Of a stretch of 62,089 nucleotides of DNA, positions 36,813-44,252 are shown piece after piece; the stretch's first letter is position 1; each line of letters opens with the position of its first letter. This stretch comes from an uncultured bacterium (GTDB taxonomy: Bacteria; Patescibacteriota; Minisyncoccia; Phycocordibacterales; PALSA-1337). Made by a program: the position numbers and the translations under genes. The notes beneath the pieces were generated by a model that had not been told where the DNA came from, searched no databases, and was given only the letters and a program-made list of their open reading frames with translations. Location of the stretch: positions 1 to 62,089 of the forward strand of contig CAIUUK010000013.1 of assembly GCA_903902315.1 (NCBI GenBank), written 5' to 3'.

Positions 36813-37031
36813 ATGAAATTTGGTCTTAGAAAATTTTCGTTAAACAAAAGAATCGCAGCGCGTACTTCATGGAAGAGGGTGGTTAGACATTCTATAGGTT
36901 TAAAAGCTCCACGGGGTTTTGGTTGGTTCACGGACCCTAAGAGAGCGCTTTATAACAGAGTCTATAATCGTACAAGTGTAAGTGTGGATAAATTGGTTAT
37001 TAGTATTTTCAAGCTATTTTTTCCTAGGTAG
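36813..37031 (+). CDS. Small basic hypothetical protein, 72 aa
   Basis: ORF-track ORF whose 3' end overlaps the recombinase stop region. Coding status is uncertain. Confidence 0.3.
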   Translation: MKFGLRKFSLNKRIAARTSWKRVVRHSIGLKAPRGFGWFTDPKRALYNRVYNRTSVSVDKLVISIFKLFFPR

Positions 37032-38604
37032 TTTGAGGATTATAAAGTTCTCTTGCGAAACTGAAGTCTTTGATATTTCCAGTCATAATCTCTGGGCTGA
37101 CACTGCTCAAATTGATTGTCTTTTGATGTAATAGCTCCTGAAATAGCGGGGAATAATGTTCAGCTATGATGATTCCGTCTTTTACTTCAAATTTATCAAA
37201 GAAAAAGTCGATTAAGCGTTTTTGTATCCTCTCTGGTGCTTTAAGATATGTCTGATAAATATCTCTCGTGAAGTTGAGGATCTCAGCAAGTGCATCGACA
37301 TTGATTTCCTTTGTTTTCTTGAGTTCACTGATCTTATGGTTAATTCTGTCTATATGACCTGATATCTCGTCTCTAATACGCGTATAGTCGGGTTTAGACA
37401 GTGTCTCATCGAGAAGTCTATCCTCAGCAGTCTTGAGTTTTGCTTCCCACGCATTCTTTTGGTTTAACAAGCCTCGAATATTTGTATCGTAAGATTGCTT
37501 CCTTGTTTCATATGTCTCTTTCACTTTAGCGATGATTGAGTCTATAAATCCTCGGTCGAGTTGGACATTTTTGAACTTATTAGCTACCTGTTTTTCGAGG
37601 TCTGACTTTTCAATATACTTACCACATCCAGTTGGGTTAGAGCAGTGATAGTATGCTTTGCCTTTTGCGAGGTGCCATTCTGCTGTGTATCTCCGCTTAT
37701 GAATGGCACAGAAGATGTAACCAGTAAGGAGCCAGAAGTATTTTCTTCGTCTGCAACGATTGTTAGTATTTCCATCTATGATGTTTTTCACTTGATTGAA
37801 AGTGGTTTCATCGATGAGGTGTTCGTGTTTACCGTCTTTCACATTGATATCTCGCCAGTGTATCTCTCCGAGATAGATTCGATTTCTCAGCATATCGTAA
37901 AACATGCTTGGCGCTAACTTCTTATTTGTATGAGAAACAAGACCTTTCTCATACATCATATCGTTTAATTCGAGGGCATTATATTGACCAGTCGCATAGA
38001 GTTTAAATGCTTCGGTTACAAGGGGTCCAACTTTTGGATGGGGGACAATAATTTTTTTAGCTACTTTCTCACAGAACTGATCTGGATTTTTACAATTTGT
38101 GAAGCCTATCGGAGCATGCGTTGGATAGTACCCAGCCAGAGCTTTTGCGTCTGTGGCTTGTCTGGTTTTTTCTCTAGTGTTGTCTGAGTGATATTGATTG
38201 ATTGTGGCAAACATATTGTCAGCCATGATCGAGCAGGCGTCTTCACCAGAGGATTGTCCGTTTAGATATTTTAGCTGAACTCCATTTGAAAGAAATGTGT
38301 GTCTCAAGAATGAGTGGTCAACAATATTTCGTGCTAGTCGATCCGAATGAGTAACGTATATTATCGATATCTCTCTATTCTTGGCGAGTTCAATGACTTC
38401 CTGAATACCTTTTCGGTTTAGGTTCTTTCCACTTTTACCCTCATCTTTAATAATCTTGATGTCAGTATAGCCATCACGAATAGCCGCCGTACGGCACTGT
38501 TGTTCTTGGTAGTCGAGAGAAATTCCATTGTCCGCCTGATCGTCAGTGGAAACTCTATTGTACCCAAGTGCAGTATTTTTATTTTTAGGGATTTTCCGTT
38601 CCAT
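37024..38604 (-). CDS. Large serine recombinase
   Basis: GYNRVSTDDQ catalytic Ser context, THSDRLARN, a recombinase domain, a Cys cluster (C...YHCSNPTGCGKY) and a coiled-coil tail. Confidence 0.9.
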   Translation of the reverse strand: MERKIPKNKNTALGYNRVSTDDQADNGISLDYQEQQCRTAAIRDGYTDIKIIKDEGKSGKNLNRKGIQEVIELAKNREISIIYVTHSDRLARNIVDHSFLRHTFLSNGVQLKYLNGQSSGEDACSIMADNMFATINQYHSDNTREKTRQATDAKALAGYYPTHAPIGFTNCKNPDQFCEKVAKKIIVPHPKVGPLVTEAFKLYATGQYNALELNDMMYEKGLVSHTNKKLAPSMFYDMLRNRIYLGEIHWRDINVKDGKHEHLIDETTFNQVKNIIDGNTNNRCRRRKYFWLLTGYIFCAIHKRRYTAEWHLAKGKAYYHCSNPTGCGKYIEKSDLEKQVANKFKNVQLDRGFIDSIIAKVKETYETRKQSYDTNIRGLLNQKNAWEAKLKTAEDRLLDETLSKPDYTRIRDEISGHIDRINHKISELKKTKEINVDALAEILNFTRDIYQTYLKAPERIQKRLIDFFFDKFEVKDGIIIAEHYSPLFQELLHQKTINLSSVSPEIMTGNIKDFSFARELYNPQTT

Positions 38605-40299: not shown

Positions 40300-41001
40300 T
40301 TATTCATCCACTTTCTTTATCTGAATGATGTATTTATTTGTAGTGAAATTTTCAATAGTTATTGGCATACCACTGTCTTTAAGCTTTCTTCGTAGTTTTT
40401 TCAACGCTGATCGGAATGAGCCCTCGTCTCTATAGGGGACAGATTGTTCAAGTTCTTCTCTATTGATTTCCACTCCTTTTTTTGTAGTTTTTCCATCTGG
40501 TGAGATAATCCTTGGATTTTCAAGAAATATTCCCATCATCGTATAGTGACCTCTTTCAATCGGAAGTACGACGTCTCCCCAGACAATAGTCTTATTCAAT
40601 AGTTTAGGTGTGCCACGCAGACGATAAAATTTTTTCAAGAATAGATCTAGTTGCTTTGGAGAATCAATCAGTTCTTTAAGTCTAATCTCGTCTGTTTGGA
40701 TATCCGACTTCTTTTTCCATTCCAAGTCAATATTACCAATTGTAAATCCGCCTGTTCTTCTCTCAATCATTTCTTTCGTTGGAGCTATGTCATAATCCTC
40801 ATCACCTGGATCCCAAGGCATAATCTGATACTCAAATATCTCAGCTTTTCGAAAAAGATCCAAGATTTCGATAATTTTTGGCTTTGGAATATCCAACTCC
40901 TCCTCTAGCGATTTGAAGCTCCAGACGGGTCCAATCTTTTGAGCGCGAATCGCGAAATTAGCTAATTTCTTTATATCCTCTTTTACGTTTCTTGTTTCCA
41001 T
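40300..41001 (-). CDS. Putative DNA-binding protein with an OmpR/PhoB-type winged-helix-like C-terminus
   Basis: The C-terminal EELEQSVPYRDEGSFRSALKKLRRKLKDSGMPITIENF resembles the trans_reg_C pattern. It is the first gene of the reverse-strand operon. Confidence 0.4.
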   Translation of the reverse strand: METRNVKEDIKKLANFAIRAQKIGPVWSFKSLEEELDIPKPKIIEILDLFRKAEIFEYQIMPWDPGDEDYDIAPTKEMIERRTGGFTIGNIDLEWKKKSDIQTDEIRLKELIDSPKQLDLFLKKFYRLRGTPKLLNKTIVWGDVVLPIERGHYTMMGIFLENPRIISPDGKTTKKGVEINREELEQSVPYRDEGSFRSALKKLRRKLKDSGMPITIENFTTNKYIIQIKKVDE

Positions 41002-41086
41002 ATCAAATTAAATTTACCGTGTATAAGCTTTTCATTCAAGTCCTAATCTAATCGACAGCGCCAGTCTACAGTGATATATTTGTAGT

Positions 41087-41243
41087 ACAACTGAATACCG
41101 AAAGTAGCCTAAACCACTAACGTGGCATGGTGAATAACCCAGTCAAGGACAAAGAACCCATCGTGTGGGATTGCCTTGACTGGTCATATCGGGAAACCGG
41201 TATGGGGGACTTCGGTCCTCACCCCGCGGTGGGCTTTTTGTTT
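41087..41243 (+). ncRNA. Highly structured RNA leader or sRNA ending in a terminator 10 nt before the 41253 ATG
   Basis: Putative promoter: TCGACA at 41052-41057 and TG-n-TATATT at 41072-41080. Perfect 10-bp stem 41139-41148/41174-41183. GAAA-capped 8-bp hairpin at 41185-41204. UUCG-capped 6-bp hairpin at 41205-41220. CACC-ccgc-GGTG followed by GGCTTTTT. Confidence 0.45.
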
Positions 41244-41252
41244 ACCTAATCT

Positions 41253-41795
41253 ATGCAGTTCAAGATTCCAAAACTTGTTATAACTGATAAAAAAGATTTT
41301 TTGGAATTTTGGGCTAGACGATACACGTACTCGTTGGATGGACTATATGAAGAAAATATCAATCAGCCTTTAAATGAGAGTTGTGTTATAGAACTCTATC
41401 GTTGGAAGAATGGAACTGACCTATCGGAGAAGAAATTAGATTTGGTGAAGAGAGTATACATTCCTGAACTGAATCATTTACCGAAAATTGAGACTGTTGA
41501 GCAGGGTAGAGAGTATTTATTAAAACTCAATCGTGGGCAGATTTGGGATTTCTTCTGGCTTCATTGTTTGAACCCAAAGTTATTTCCAATATTTGATCAG
41601 CATACTTACAGAGCCATGGCTGAAATGGAAGGGCTAGCTGTACCAGAGATCCCATACTCGACAGAGAAGAAACTTGATATGTATTTTTCTCGCTACATAC
41701 CTTTTGTCTCAAAGATCGGTGGTGATATGCGTCTTTTGGATAAGGCACTTTTTGCGTATGGAAAGGAATTAAAGACAGGACCCTTTTCTCCATAG
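41253..41795 (+). CDS. Hypothetical protein, 180 aa
   Basis: Clean ORF with no recognisable motif and no obvious Shine-Dalgarno sequence. Confidence 0.5.
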   Translation: MQFKIPKLVITDKKDFLEFWARRYTYSLDGLYEENINQPLNESCVIELYRWKNGTDLSEKKLDLVKRVYIPELNHLPKIETVEQGREYLLKLNRGQIWDFFWLHCLNPKLFPIFDQHTYRAMAEMEGLAVPEIPYSTEKKLDMYFSRYIPFVSKIGGDMRLLDKALFAYGKELKTGPFSP

Positions 41796-42358: not shown

Positions 42359-42631
42359 ATGAAAAAGAAACATACAGCCAGATACATAGAAAGACACAAG
42401 AACTTTTATTGTATCGATTGCAAGAAAGACACATGGTATGAATACTACACAGTCAATAATCGGCTGTGGAAAAAGATCAATCCAAAAATAAGTGGAATGC
42501 TCTGTATTGGCTGTGTTGAAACACGATTAGGAAGAAAGCTGAAAAAGGCAGATTTTGCGGATAAACCTATTAATACAAAGAAGTTTACTCGAACACCAAG
42601 GCTGATCAATAGGTTACAGAGAGAAGTTTGA
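42359..42631 (+). CDS. Small basic zinc-finger protein, 90 aa
   Basis: CIDC...CIGC four-Cys arrangement. It starts 7 nt after the preceding stop. Confidence 0.45.
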   Translation: MKKKHTARYIERHKNFYCIDCKKDTWYEYYTVNNRLWKKINPKISGMLCIGCVETRLGRKLKKADFADKPINTKKFTRTPRLINRLQREV

Positions 42632-43319: not shown

Positions 43320-44252
43320 ATGAGAAAACTACTTATAACAAGTGTGTTATTCCTATTTATTCTAGTAGTTCAAATTTCAACTGCTCATGCGGTATATGTA
43401 AGTGGATATTATAGAAGTAACGGCACTTACGTTAATGGATATGAACGAACAGCTCCTGACGGTAATCCGTATAATAATTATAGTTATCCGGGAAATTACA
43501 ATCCAAATACAGGAAGCATTACAGGCGGAAGTGATAGCACATATTTAAATAATTATTATAGTAGCGGGTCTTCGGGTAGTACTTACTATTCTTCTCCTAC
43601 ATCGTATAGTAGTTACTCTTACCCAACTACACCGACATGCCCATTAAATTCATATTATGATGGTATTTCTACTTGTAAGTGTAATTATGGGTATGTTGTT
43701 AGTGGGGGAAGTTGTGTTTCCGCAAATAGTATTTGTTACAACCAGCTTGGCTATAGTTCTAGTTATGATTCAACAAGTAATACCTGTAAGTGTGACTATG
43801 GCTATGTGATAGGATCCTCTGGTCAATGTACTAGTGGTACAAATTACTGTTATTCTAAAACAGGTTATGAGTCCACCTATGATTCAAGTAGTAATACATG
43901 TAAGTGTAATAGTGGTTATGTGTTAAATACTTTAGGACAGTGTGTCGCACAAGCGCCATTGGTACCACAAATAAGCACAACAAATCTCACGTCTAAATCG
44001 GCTGTGGTGGTCTATGAAAAATATAGTTGTGACTATTTTATCGTTAAAGATAGTGGTGGTGATTATGATTTATTAGAGTGGTATAGCGGTTATGATCCAA
44101 GTTCGGGCGATATTTTAAAAGGGAACTTCCATACATACGGTTTTCATGATTTTTATAATTCCTCATATACTAGAAAGACCCATGTCTGGATTGAGGATTG
44201 GTTGTTAACTTGGGATGATGCAATTAGTCAGTATAAAGATAAATGTAATTAA
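43320..44252 (+). CDS. Secreted Cys-rich repeat protein, 310 aa
   Basis: Signal peptide, a YVSGYYRSNGTYVNGYERTAPDGNPYNNYS motif, and repeated C.C.YGYV....G.C units similar to those in the 35394-36800 protease. Confidence 0.6.
   Translation: MRKLLITSVLFLFILVVQISTAHAVYVSGYYRSNGTYVNGYERTAPDGNPYNNYSYPGNYNPNTGSITGGSDSTYLNNYYSSGSSGSTYYSSPTSYSSYSYPTTPTCPLNSYYDGISTCKCNYGYVVSGGSCVSANSICYNQLGYSSSYDSTSNTCKCDYGYVIGSSGQCTSGTNYCYSKTGYESTYDSSSNTCKCNSGYVLNTLGQCVAQAPLVPQISTTNLTSKSAVVVYEKYSCDYFIVKDSGGDYDLLEWYSGYDPSSGDILKGNFHTYGFHDFYNSSYTRKTHVWIEDWLLTWDDAISQYKDKCN

What the first reader, a model, noticed from the sequence alone, without database searches (positions are those of the whole stretch)
41052..41243. 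Strongly structured RNA of about 155 nt with GAAA and UUCG tetraloops and a terminator 10 nt before an ORF that lacks a Shine-Dalgarno sequence
The putative promoter is TCGACA-n-TG-a-TATATT. Downstream of it the plus strand can form four elements.
- A perfect 10-bp stem (CCAGTCAAGG/CCTTGACTGG) encloses a CCCA/TGGG hairpin.
- An 8-bp hairpin is capped by GAAA.
- A 6-bp hairpin is capped by UUCG.
- A GC-rich hairpin plus T5 partly overlaps the UUCG stem, giving possible alternative pairing.

The following ORF (41253) starts 10 nt after the T run with no obvious ribosome-binding site. Stable tetraloop-capped helices in an AT-rich genome are not expected by chance. The element could be a riboswitch-like attenuator, a replication or copy-control RNA of the mobile element, or a non-coding partner of the unknown downstream proteins. 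I could not match it to any riboswitch or ribozyme consensus I know.
Basis: seen in the sequence. Interest (0 to 1): 0.6.

Follow-up and report, generated by a model that had tools for sequence, protein, structure and literature searches.

The report
LOOT RNA leader with built-in terminator
The structured stretch is a full-length copy of LOOT RNA, a catalogued RNA family of unknown function. Here it heads the cargo genes of an integrated mobile element in an ultra-small (Patescibacteria) bacterium and looks built to switch between a read-through fold and a terminator fold.

Summary
Window 41106-41220 (+) matches Rfam LOOT (RF03000) over its full length at 80 bits (cut-off 46), so it is a known family.

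New context from 112 copies:
- **Host and element.** LOOT occurs in about 20-27% of sampled Patescibacteria genomes. It almost always lies within a few kb of a large serine integrase, often beside phage terminase genes, and it is also on 7 IMG/VR viral contigs.
- **Promoter.** A sigma-70-type promoter and a conserved 5' ACAAYUGAAUA precede it.
- **Downstream gene.** In 108/112 loci a co-directional gene starts about 33 nt after it.
- **Terminator helix.** The roughly 20 nt after the Rfam model, U tract included, are complementary to the apex of the long hairpin P2. This helix covaries and cannot fully coexist with stem P2a. The two folds are about isoenergetic.
- **Start-site copy.** About one third of loci also repeat the P2a 5' strand at the next gene's start site. 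This window does not.

Best reading (about 0.6): a cis-acting two-state leader or attenuator, not a free small RNA. The trigger is unknown and no transcript data were available.

The missing Shine-Dalgarno is normal here (2/44 genes have one). This scan has reached the same reading on other genomes before.

The parts
41052..41057 (+). -35-like hexamer TCGACA
   Evidence: A TTGACA-like -35 recurs at this distance in the profile of 92 loci.
41072..41080 (+). Extended -10 (TG-a-TATATT)
   Evidence: The -10 box aligns at a fixed distance in 100 loci.
41087..41097 (+). Conserved leader ACAACUGAAUA, probable first 11 nt of the transcript (start inferred 7 nt after the -10)
   Evidence: The motif ACAAYUGAAUA is found in 92/112 loci, 10-31 nt before the Rfam model start. 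The transcription start is inferred, not measured.
41106..41220 (+). LOOT RNA core as modelled by Rfam (four serial hairpins P1-P4)
   Evidence: RF03000, 80.1 bits, model positions 1-121/121, E 1.8e-13.
41107..41131 (+). P1 with internal loop CCUAAA (41108-41113) / CAUGG (41126-41130), resembling the 11-nt GAAA-tetraloop receptor
   Evidence: Loop pairs are CCUAAA/CAUGG in 60 loci and CCUAAC/UAUGG in 15. The receptor consensus CCUAAG/UAUGG comes from PMC2615604. Docking is inferred.
41139..41148 (+). P2a 5' strand (CCAGUCAAGG)
   Evidence: Perfect 10-bp stem. It covaries across 103 sequences even on an alignment not fitted to it.
41149..41173 (+). Apex of P2 (A-rich internal loop plus P2b hairpin). 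Positions 41149-41170 are the 5' strand ('A') of the long-range terminator helix.
   Evidence: Duplex with the tail is -27.4 kcal/mol. The helix covaries.
41174..41183 (+). P2a 3' strand (CCUUGACUGG)
   Evidence: In about 30/95 other loci this strand is complementary to the start region of the next gene. It is not in this window.
41185..41204 (+). P3, 8-bp hairpin with GAAA loop (41193-41196)
   Evidence: The loop is GAAA in 109/109 loci.
41205..41220 (+). P4, 6-bp hairpin with UUCG loop (41211-41214)
   Evidence: The family has GNRA here in 79 loci and UUCG in 18.
41221..41242 (+). 3' tail 'D' (ACCCCGCGGUGGGCUUUUUGUU), the 3' strand of the long-range helix with U tract 41235-41239. It lies outside the Rfam model.
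41253..41795 (+). First downstream gene (180 aa, conserved hypothetical). There is no promoter-like site between the tail and its ATG.
   Evidence: Homologues of 180-185 aa align over 98-99% of the query, so the start is right. No Pfam, PHROG, PADLOC or PDB match.
40300..41001 (-). Divergently transcribed 233-aa gene of the element (no family match)
37024..38604 (-). Large serine recombinase (integrase) of the island that carries the RNA
   Evidence: Resolvase, Recombinase and Zn_ribbon_recom domains. phrog_95 integrase, 3e-66.

Best explanation
The element is a LOOT RNA (Rfam RF03000). It is transcribed from its own sigma-70-type promoter, starting at about 41087, as the 5' leader of the rightward cargo operon of an integrase-bearing island in a Paceibacteria-class (Patescibacteria) genome.

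I read it as a cis-acting two-state attenuator.
- Fold 1 is the catalogued series of four hairpins (P1, P2a/P2b, P3-GAAA, P4-UUCG). It is probably compacted by the P3 GAAA loop docking into the receptor-like loop of P1. This fold leaves the tail single-stranded.
- Fold 2 forms when the 22-nt tail (41221-41242) pairs with the apex of P2 (41149-41170). That gives a helix of about 20 bp ending in the U tract, which is an intrinsic terminator whose 5' strand sits inside the structured domain. The full helix cannot coexist with stem P2a.

Which fold forms as the polymerase reaches the U tract decides the outcome. Either a short RNA of about 155 nt is released, or transcription continues into the gene that starts 10 nt further on.

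Shown: family membership, covariation of both competing helices, their near-equal energies, the promoter, and the gene arrangement.

Inferred: the transcription start, actual termination, tetraloop docking, and the trigger, which is unknown. Candidates for the trigger are a host or element factor, polymerase speed, or Mg2+.
For: - Membership: 80.1 bits, full length.
- Native fold: 109/112 family cores fold into four serial hairpins.
- Long-range helix, alignment-free test: the P2 apex against its own tail gives a median of -25.4 kcal/mol. Tails of other loci give -13.2, the shuffled own tail gives -10.7, and the tail folded alone gives only -5.3. The own tail ranks in the top 5 of 96 in 85 loci.
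- Covariation: 19 pairs are 95% and 87% paired, all with double-sided changes, against 40-48% in slid controls. On an alignment fitted to the rival native fold, the 15 core pairs are still 84-95% paired.
- U tract: its side stays U while the partner varies between A and G (AU:98, AU:91, AU:52/GU:46). That is what a terminator would show.
- P2a: it covaries too.
- Energies: the native fold and the fold with P2a open differ by a median of -0.4 kcal/mol. For this window they are -51.6 and -53.3.
- Leader position: a co-directional gene follows in 108/112 loci, at a median of 33 nt after the tail. No promoter-like site lies between the tail and the ATG here.
- Start-site copy: in about 30/95 loci a copy of the P2a 5' strand ends 0-8 nt before the next ATG.
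- Strand-specific U.G pairs (66-86 of 103 sequences at three positions) point to RNA on this strand.
Against: - No transcript data.
- A shorter version of the tail-apex helix (the G+C-rich core only) could coexist with P2a as a pseudoknot. The tail might then simply stabilise a free small RNA, rather than acting as a switch.
- This window lacks the start-site copy seen in a third of loci, so part of the family-level argument does not apply here.
- Downstream genes are heterogeneous and no sensing partner was found.
- The alignments come from related sequences, so the shuffle statistics overstate independence.
Confidence: 0.6

Rival explanations
1. It is a free-standing trans-acting small RNA, as Rfam labels the family ('Gene; sRNA'). 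It is always terminated at the U tract, and the tail-apex pairing is a 3' pseudoknot or extended helix that stabilises the mature RNA.
For: - It has its own promoter and a U tract.
- There are 1-4 copies per genome.
- Pairing of the U tail with an A tract would protect the 3' end.
- Rfam gives the type as sRNA.
Against: - 108/112 copies have a co-directional gene at a median of 33 nt, with no room for, or sign of, another promoter.
- One third of loci carry a copy of the P2a 5' strand at the adjacent gene's start.
- Copies within one genome are not kept orthogonal. Cross-pairing is about as strong as self-pairing in G030 and G278, and partly so in G000, out of 7 multi-copy genomes.
- Both roles could coexist.
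Confidence: 0.2
2. It is a metabolite- or ion-sensing riboswitch. The LOOT core would be an aptamer and the tail-apex helix its expression platform, in an ON-switch layout.
For: - The terminator 5' strand is embedded in the conserved domain.
- The two folds are near-isoenergetic.
- The core nucleotides are highly conserved.
Against: - Downstream genes are diverse cargo, including secreted, membrane and zinc-ribbon proteins and hypotheticals, with no common pathway.
- The RNA rides on integrative, phage-like elements.
- The conserved loops are explained by a tetraloop and receptor, not by an obvious pocket.
- The architecture is a row of hairpins without a junction.
Confidence: 0.1
3. It is a phage-type anti-termination or immunity RNA. 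One possibility is an RNA that modifies polymerase, like the put RNA of phage HK022 (recalled from memory). The other is an RNA that pairs with its own operon's transcript, like P1 c4 or P4 CI (also recalled from memory).
For: - It sits at the head of an operon divergent from integrase, repressor-like or terminase genes in phage-like elements.
- It is complementary to the downstream start region in one third of loci.
- The conserved initial transcribed sequence could be a pause or recognition site.
Against: - No test of polymerase modification or of processing was possible.
- This window has no start-site complementarity.
- There is no sequence or structure similarity to those RNAs. Only LOOT matched in Rfam, even at E-values up to 1.
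Confidence: 0.08
4. It is a DNA-level structure of the mobile element, such as a single-strand replication origin or a recombination site, rather than an RNA.
For: It lies next to a serine recombinase. Some relatives lie next to rolling-circle Rep-like genes.
Against: - GAAA is invariant in P3, P4 carries GNRA or UUCG caps, and there is a receptor-like loop. All are RNA motifs.
- U.G pairs are strand-specific.
- A promoter lies directly upstream and a U tract downstream.
Confidence: 0.02

Closest known systems
LOOT RNA motif (Rfam RF03000; from the screen of Weinberg et al. 2017, PMC5737381)
   Same: Full-length match at 80 bits. It has the same four hairpins, the GAAA loop on P3, a tetraloop on P4 and the CCUAAA/CAUGG loop in P1.
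   Different: Nothing differs in the core. Four things go beyond the public model.
- A conserved promoter and 5' ACAAYUGAAUA.
- A covarying helix between the P2 apex and the 3' tail.
- A leader position in front of genes.
- Carriage by integrative, phage-like elements of Patescibacteria, here from freshwater and groundwater relatives rather than the ocean.
Only two papers in the searched library contain the term 'LOOT RNA' (one listed, the CaCoFold preprint), and none links it to a host.
Transcription attenuators and ON-type riboswitch expression platforms, for example the pbuE adenine riboswitch (from my own knowledge)
   Same: The 5' strand of the terminator is part of the folded sensor domain, so the folded domain and the terminator exclude each other. 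The element sits between a promoter and the first gene.
   Different: The terminator strands are about 70 nt apart and enclose two hairpins. No ligand or coherent regulon is known. Termination was not measured.
Phage leader RNAs: lambda PR'-tR' 6S RNA, HK022 put, P1 c4 and P4 CI (from my own knowledge)
   Same: A short structured transcript at the head of an operon of a temperate element, followed by a terminator. In a third of LOOT loci the RNA is complementary to the start region of the next gene, as c4 is.
   Different: There is no sequence or fold similarity. No dedicated protein partner is conserved next to LOOT. This window's copy lacks the start-site complementarity.
GAAA tetraloop / 11-nt receptor (CCUAAG/UAUGG; PMC2615604)
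   Same: The P1 loop is CCUAAA/CAUGG or CCUAAC/UAUGG, and the P3 loop is GAAA in all 109 copies parsed.
   Different: One or two positions differ from the canonical receptor. Docking is inferred from sequence only.

Membership tests
LOOT RNA (RF03000) | Covariance-model score above the curated gathering score, over the full model | tested here: met
   80.1 bits against 46.4, model positions 1-121/121.
LOOT RNA (RF03000) | Four consecutive hairpins with tetraloop caps on P3 and P4 | tested here: met
   The MFE and CM alignments show P1-P4, with GAAA on P3 and UUCG on P4. The same holds in 109/112 relatives.
LOOT RNA (RF03000) | Helices supported by compensatory changes among homologues | tested here: met
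   All pairs of P1, P2a, P3 and P4 show double-sided changes, and P1, P3 and P4 are 94-99% paired.
Intrinsic (Rho-independent) terminator / attenuator | G+C-rich helix immediately followed by a U tract, between a promoter and a gene | tested here: met
   The tail-apex helix ends in GGGC-UUUUU. The U side is conserved as U. A promoter lies upstream and the ATG is 13 nt after the U5 run.
Intrinsic (Rho-independent) terminator / attenuator | A conserved alternative structure that excludes the terminator | tested here: met
   P2a and the tail-apex helix both covary. They cross in topology, and the apex loop is fully consumed by the helix. The energies differ by a median of -0.4 kcal/mol. A partial pseudoknot is not excluded.
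Intrinsic (Rho-independent) terminator / attenuator | Transcripts that end at the U tract, with a regulated read-through fraction | not testable with these tools
Riboswitch | Specific ligand binding by the conserved domain | not testable with these tools
Riboswitch | Functionally coherent set of regulated genes | tested here: not met
   The first downstream genes fall into many unrelated small clusters, mostly unannotated cargo. Examples are surface repeat proteins, zinc-ribbon membrane proteins and hypotheticals.
Trans-acting small RNA gene | Independent gene with no fixed orientation or spacing relative to its neighbours | tested here: not met
   108/112 copies have a co-directional gene, at a median of 33 nt after the tail.
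c4/CI-type phage antisense RNA | Complementarity to the translation start region of a gene downstream in the same operon | tested here: not met
   This is met in about 30/95 relatives. In this window the best duplex is -9.5 kcal/mol, and 79 of the 95 other loci's P2a 3' strands bind this downstream region at least as well.

The most novel reading that the evidence does not exclude
LOOT may be a self-contained bistable RNA switch of a kind not yet described. A tetraloop-receptor-compacted row of hairpins would lend the apex of one hairpin as the 5' strand of a distant terminator. In many copies its freed stem strand would also act as a mask for the next start codon. This would gate the cargo or early operon of phage-like integrative elements across the Patescibacteria, in response to a still unknown host or element signal.
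Probability: 0.35. Interest if true: 0.7.

Novelty: new member of a known kind. Interest (0 to 1): 0.45.

Why it matters
LOOT has been an orphan since 2017. It was known only from metagenomes, with no assigned host and no function, and it is filed as a small RNA.

Three things would turn it into a testable regulatory element.
- Placing it in Patescibacteria.
- Placing it on integrase- and terminase-bearing elements.
- Showing a second, covarying fold that makes a terminator.

It would then be one of the very few candidate gene-control devices known for the mobile elements of these uncultured ultra-small bacteria. It also shows that the public model is truncated at its functionally most telling part.

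Tried and rejected
- **Leader peptide.** The AUG in the conserved CAUGG opens a 40-codon frame here. The frame stays open through the element in 32/104 loci, against 30 and 31 in the other two frames, so it is chance.
- **Start-site mimic in this window.** Only CAGUCAAG against CAGUUCAAG was found, which is not above background.
- **Local terminator hairpin as the main terminator.** The tail alone folds weakly, at a median of -5.3 kcal/mol.
- **rRNA or another RNA upstream of relatives.** Rfam finds only LOOT.
- **Other Rfam families at E-values up to 1 in 40900-41400.** None.
- **Orthogonality of copies within a genome, as a sign of trans action.** Not seen.
- **Function of the neighbours.** The 180, 168, 233 and 453 aa proteins have no Pfam, PADLOC or PDB match, and PHROG matches only unknown-function families for two other island ORFs.
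- **A conserved partner protein next to LOOT.** None. The upstream genes vary between integrase, ParB-methylase, repressor-like and others.
- **Pairing partner for the conserved 5' leader.** None was seen by eye.
- **Supplement of Weinberg 2017.** It is not held, so the original description could not be read.

Full report
**What is there.**
- A promoter-like TCGACA-17-TATATT with an upstream TG.
- A perfect 10-bp stem that encloses a small CCCAU/GUGGG hairpin.
- An 8-bp GAAA hairpin and a 6-bp UUCG hairpin.
- A terminator-like hairpin plus U5 that overlaps the UUCG stem.

The 164-nt stretch folds at -59.9 kcal/mol against -47.4 +/- 4.2 for shuffles (z = -3.0). It is 51% G+C in a 39.5% window.

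**Identity.** A scan of the window against Rfam gives one non-tRNA hit. That hit is LOOT (RF03000) at 41106-41220 (+), 80.1 bits against a gathering score of 46.4, covering model positions 1-121 of 121.

Rfam types it 'Gene; sRNA'. In the held literature the motif appears only in the Weinberg et al. 2017 screen (PMC5737381, whose supplement is not held) and in the CaCoFold paper. No paper links it to a host.

**Host and distribution.** The window lies in a 0.77-Mb, 97%-complete genome with three LOOT copies. The TypA protein of the window is 94-96% identical to proteins of MAGs titled Candidatus Paceibacterota or Patescibacteria group. At about 80% identity it also matches MAGs titled Taylorbacteria and Parcubacteria. 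Many of these isolate names point to groundwater, rivers and lakes.

LOOT scores above its cut-off in:
- 23/61 close relatives;
- 39/151 genomes of the order (41 at E <= 0.001);
- 29/151 genomes of the class;
- 30/151 genomes of the phylum;
- 0/14 control genomes.

There are 1-4 copies per genome. Groups outside the phylum could not be sampled beyond the controls.

**Genomic setting.**
- In 21 loci with about 10 kb on each side, 19 have a large serine recombinase within the 20-kb stretches examined (about +/-8-10 kb of the RNA).
- About half also carry a terminase large subunit (phrog_38, 1.5e-76), a terminase small subunit and a ParB-DNA-methylase. Three carry a LexA/CI-like S24 repressor.
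- A pattern search of IMG/VR found seven viral contigs. All are confirmed as LOOT at 76-94 bits, and four of them carry genes of the same integrase / terminase / ParB-methylase module next to the RNA.
- In this genome all three copies lie within about 5 kb of a serine recombinase (C0-cluster) gene. The genome search with the window's integrase found four such genes; the one beside the C42 copy was identified only by the ORF clustering, which makes about five.
- In the window, the RNA sits in the island that also holds integrase 37024-38604, a 453-aa protein and a divergent 233-aa protein.

**Leader, not lone gene.**
- Across 112 loci the next gene is co-directional in 108. It starts a median of 33 nt after the tail, and within 100 nt in 98 of those 108.
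- Here the ATG is 13 nt after the U5 run, with no promoter-like site between them.
- Upstream, a TTGACA-like -35 and an extended -10 sit at a fixed distance from a conserved ACAAYUGAAUA (92/112 loci). This motif should be the first nucleotides of the RNA, at 41087-41097 here.
- The start codon of the 180-aa ORF is confirmed by homologues of the same length.
- The missing Shine-Dalgarno is normal. Only 2 of 44 ORFs in the window have one, and several have a -10-like box just before the ATG.

**A second conserved fold.**
- 109/112 cores fold into the four Rfam hairpins.
- In essentially every locus, the roughly 20 nt after P4 (U tract included, and outside the Rfam model) are complementary to the apex of P2. 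The apex comprises the A-rich internal loop, the P2b 5' arm, the loop and part of the 3' arm.
- Alignment-free test on 96 loci: the own apex against the own tail gives a median of -25.4 kcal/mol. Tails of other loci give -13.2 and the shuffled own tail gives -10.7. The tail alone folds at only -5.3. The own tail ranks in the top 5 of 96 in 85 loci.
- A covariance model of this fold matched all 100 loci searched, full length.
- On its alignment the 19 pairs are 95% and 87% paired, every pair shows double-sided changes, and slid controls give 40-48%.
- On an alignment fitted to the native fold instead, with the tail aligned by sequence only, the 15 core pairs are still 84-95% paired.
- The U-tract side stays U while its partners vary between A and G. 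That points to a terminator rather than mere pairing.
- Three positions are U.G in 66-86 of 103 sequences, so the structure is read on this strand.

**Competition.**
- P2a also covaries, at 79-88% paired on an alignment not fitted to it.
- The tail-apex helix consumes 22 of the 25 loop nucleotides closed by P2a. A 20-bp helix cannot have both ends of one strand anchored at one stem end, so the full helix and P2a exclude each other. This is my geometric inference. A shorter pseudoknot is possible.
- The native fold and the best fold with P2a open differ by a median of -0.4 kcal/mol. For this window they are -51.6 and -53.3.
- In about 30 of 95 loci a copy of 'AAAA plus the P2a 5' strand' ends 0-8 nt before the next ATG. 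The freed P2a 3' strand could therefore mask the start site. The window's copy lacks this.

**Other structural notes.**
- The P3 loop is GAAA in 109/109 loci.
- The P1 loop is CCUAAA/CAUGG (60 loci) or CCUAAC/UAUGG (15 loci). Both are close to the 11-nt GAAA receptor CCUAAG/UAUGG, so a P3-P1 docking is likely but untested.
- The internal 40-codon frame is chance.

**Mechanism proposed.** The RNA is a cis-acting two-state leader. The native fold allows read-through. The tail-apex helix plus the U tract stops transcription and releases an RNA of about 155 nt. The trigger is unknown. Rival readings are a stable free sRNA, a metabolite riboswitch, a phage-type anti-termination or immunity RNA, and a DNA structure. 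They are weighed in their own sections.

**Prior notes.** After reaching this reading I looked up the scan's notes. At least eight follow-ups on other genomes call the same family a switchable LOOT leader on mobile or phage-like elements of Patescibacteria. That agrees with my results but is not independent evidence.

Noticed in passing
L061:203-380 and L061:1476-1652: Two full-length LOOT copies lie in tandem about 1.27 kb apart on one contig of another genome of the same class. Each scores 68-76 bits with my models.
   Followed up: no
L118, L119, L124, L129, L134, L139 (several others similar): A compact module recurs beside LOOT: serine integrase, terminase large subunit, terminase small subunit and ParB-DNA-methylase, all on one strand. 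No capsid or portal gene was identified among the recurrent gene clusters that I annotated within about 8 kb; most of the other ORFs there were not annotated. It may be a phage-satellite-like integrative element of Patescibacteria.
   Followed up: partly
window, starts of 44 long ORFs: Only 2 of 44 ORFs have a Shine-Dalgarno-like motif. Several have a TATAAT-like box 6-8 nt before the ATG, which suggests widespread leaderless or SD-independent initiation in this genome.
   Followed up: partly
L004, L006, L027, L030, L014, L022, about 40-100 nt upstream of LOOT: A conserved block (GTTGGTAACyyGGCTTCGCAA ... AGCTAGGGTACTGAC) lies between the divergent serine recombinase gene and the LOOT promoter. 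It could be a recombinase site or a regulatory region.
   Followed up: no
window 41253-41795: The 180-aa protein behind the RNA belongs to a conserved family of about 180 aa with no domain assignment. Members at 40-50% identity include a few that NCBI names as coming from Gammaproteobacteria and Bacteroidetes MAGs, so it looks like horizontally moving cargo.
   Followed up: partly
L031, L040, L048, L068 (between the 5' leader motif and P1): Some copies carry an extra small GNRA-capped hairpin between the conserved ACAAYUGAAUA and P1.
   Followed up: no
window 42359-42631 and 43320-44252: Two island ORFs match phage protein families of unknown function: phrog_6053 at 3.7e-19, and phrog_29674 at 3.3e-10 for the N-terminus. 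These are the only phage-like signals in the cargo part of this island.
   Followed up: no
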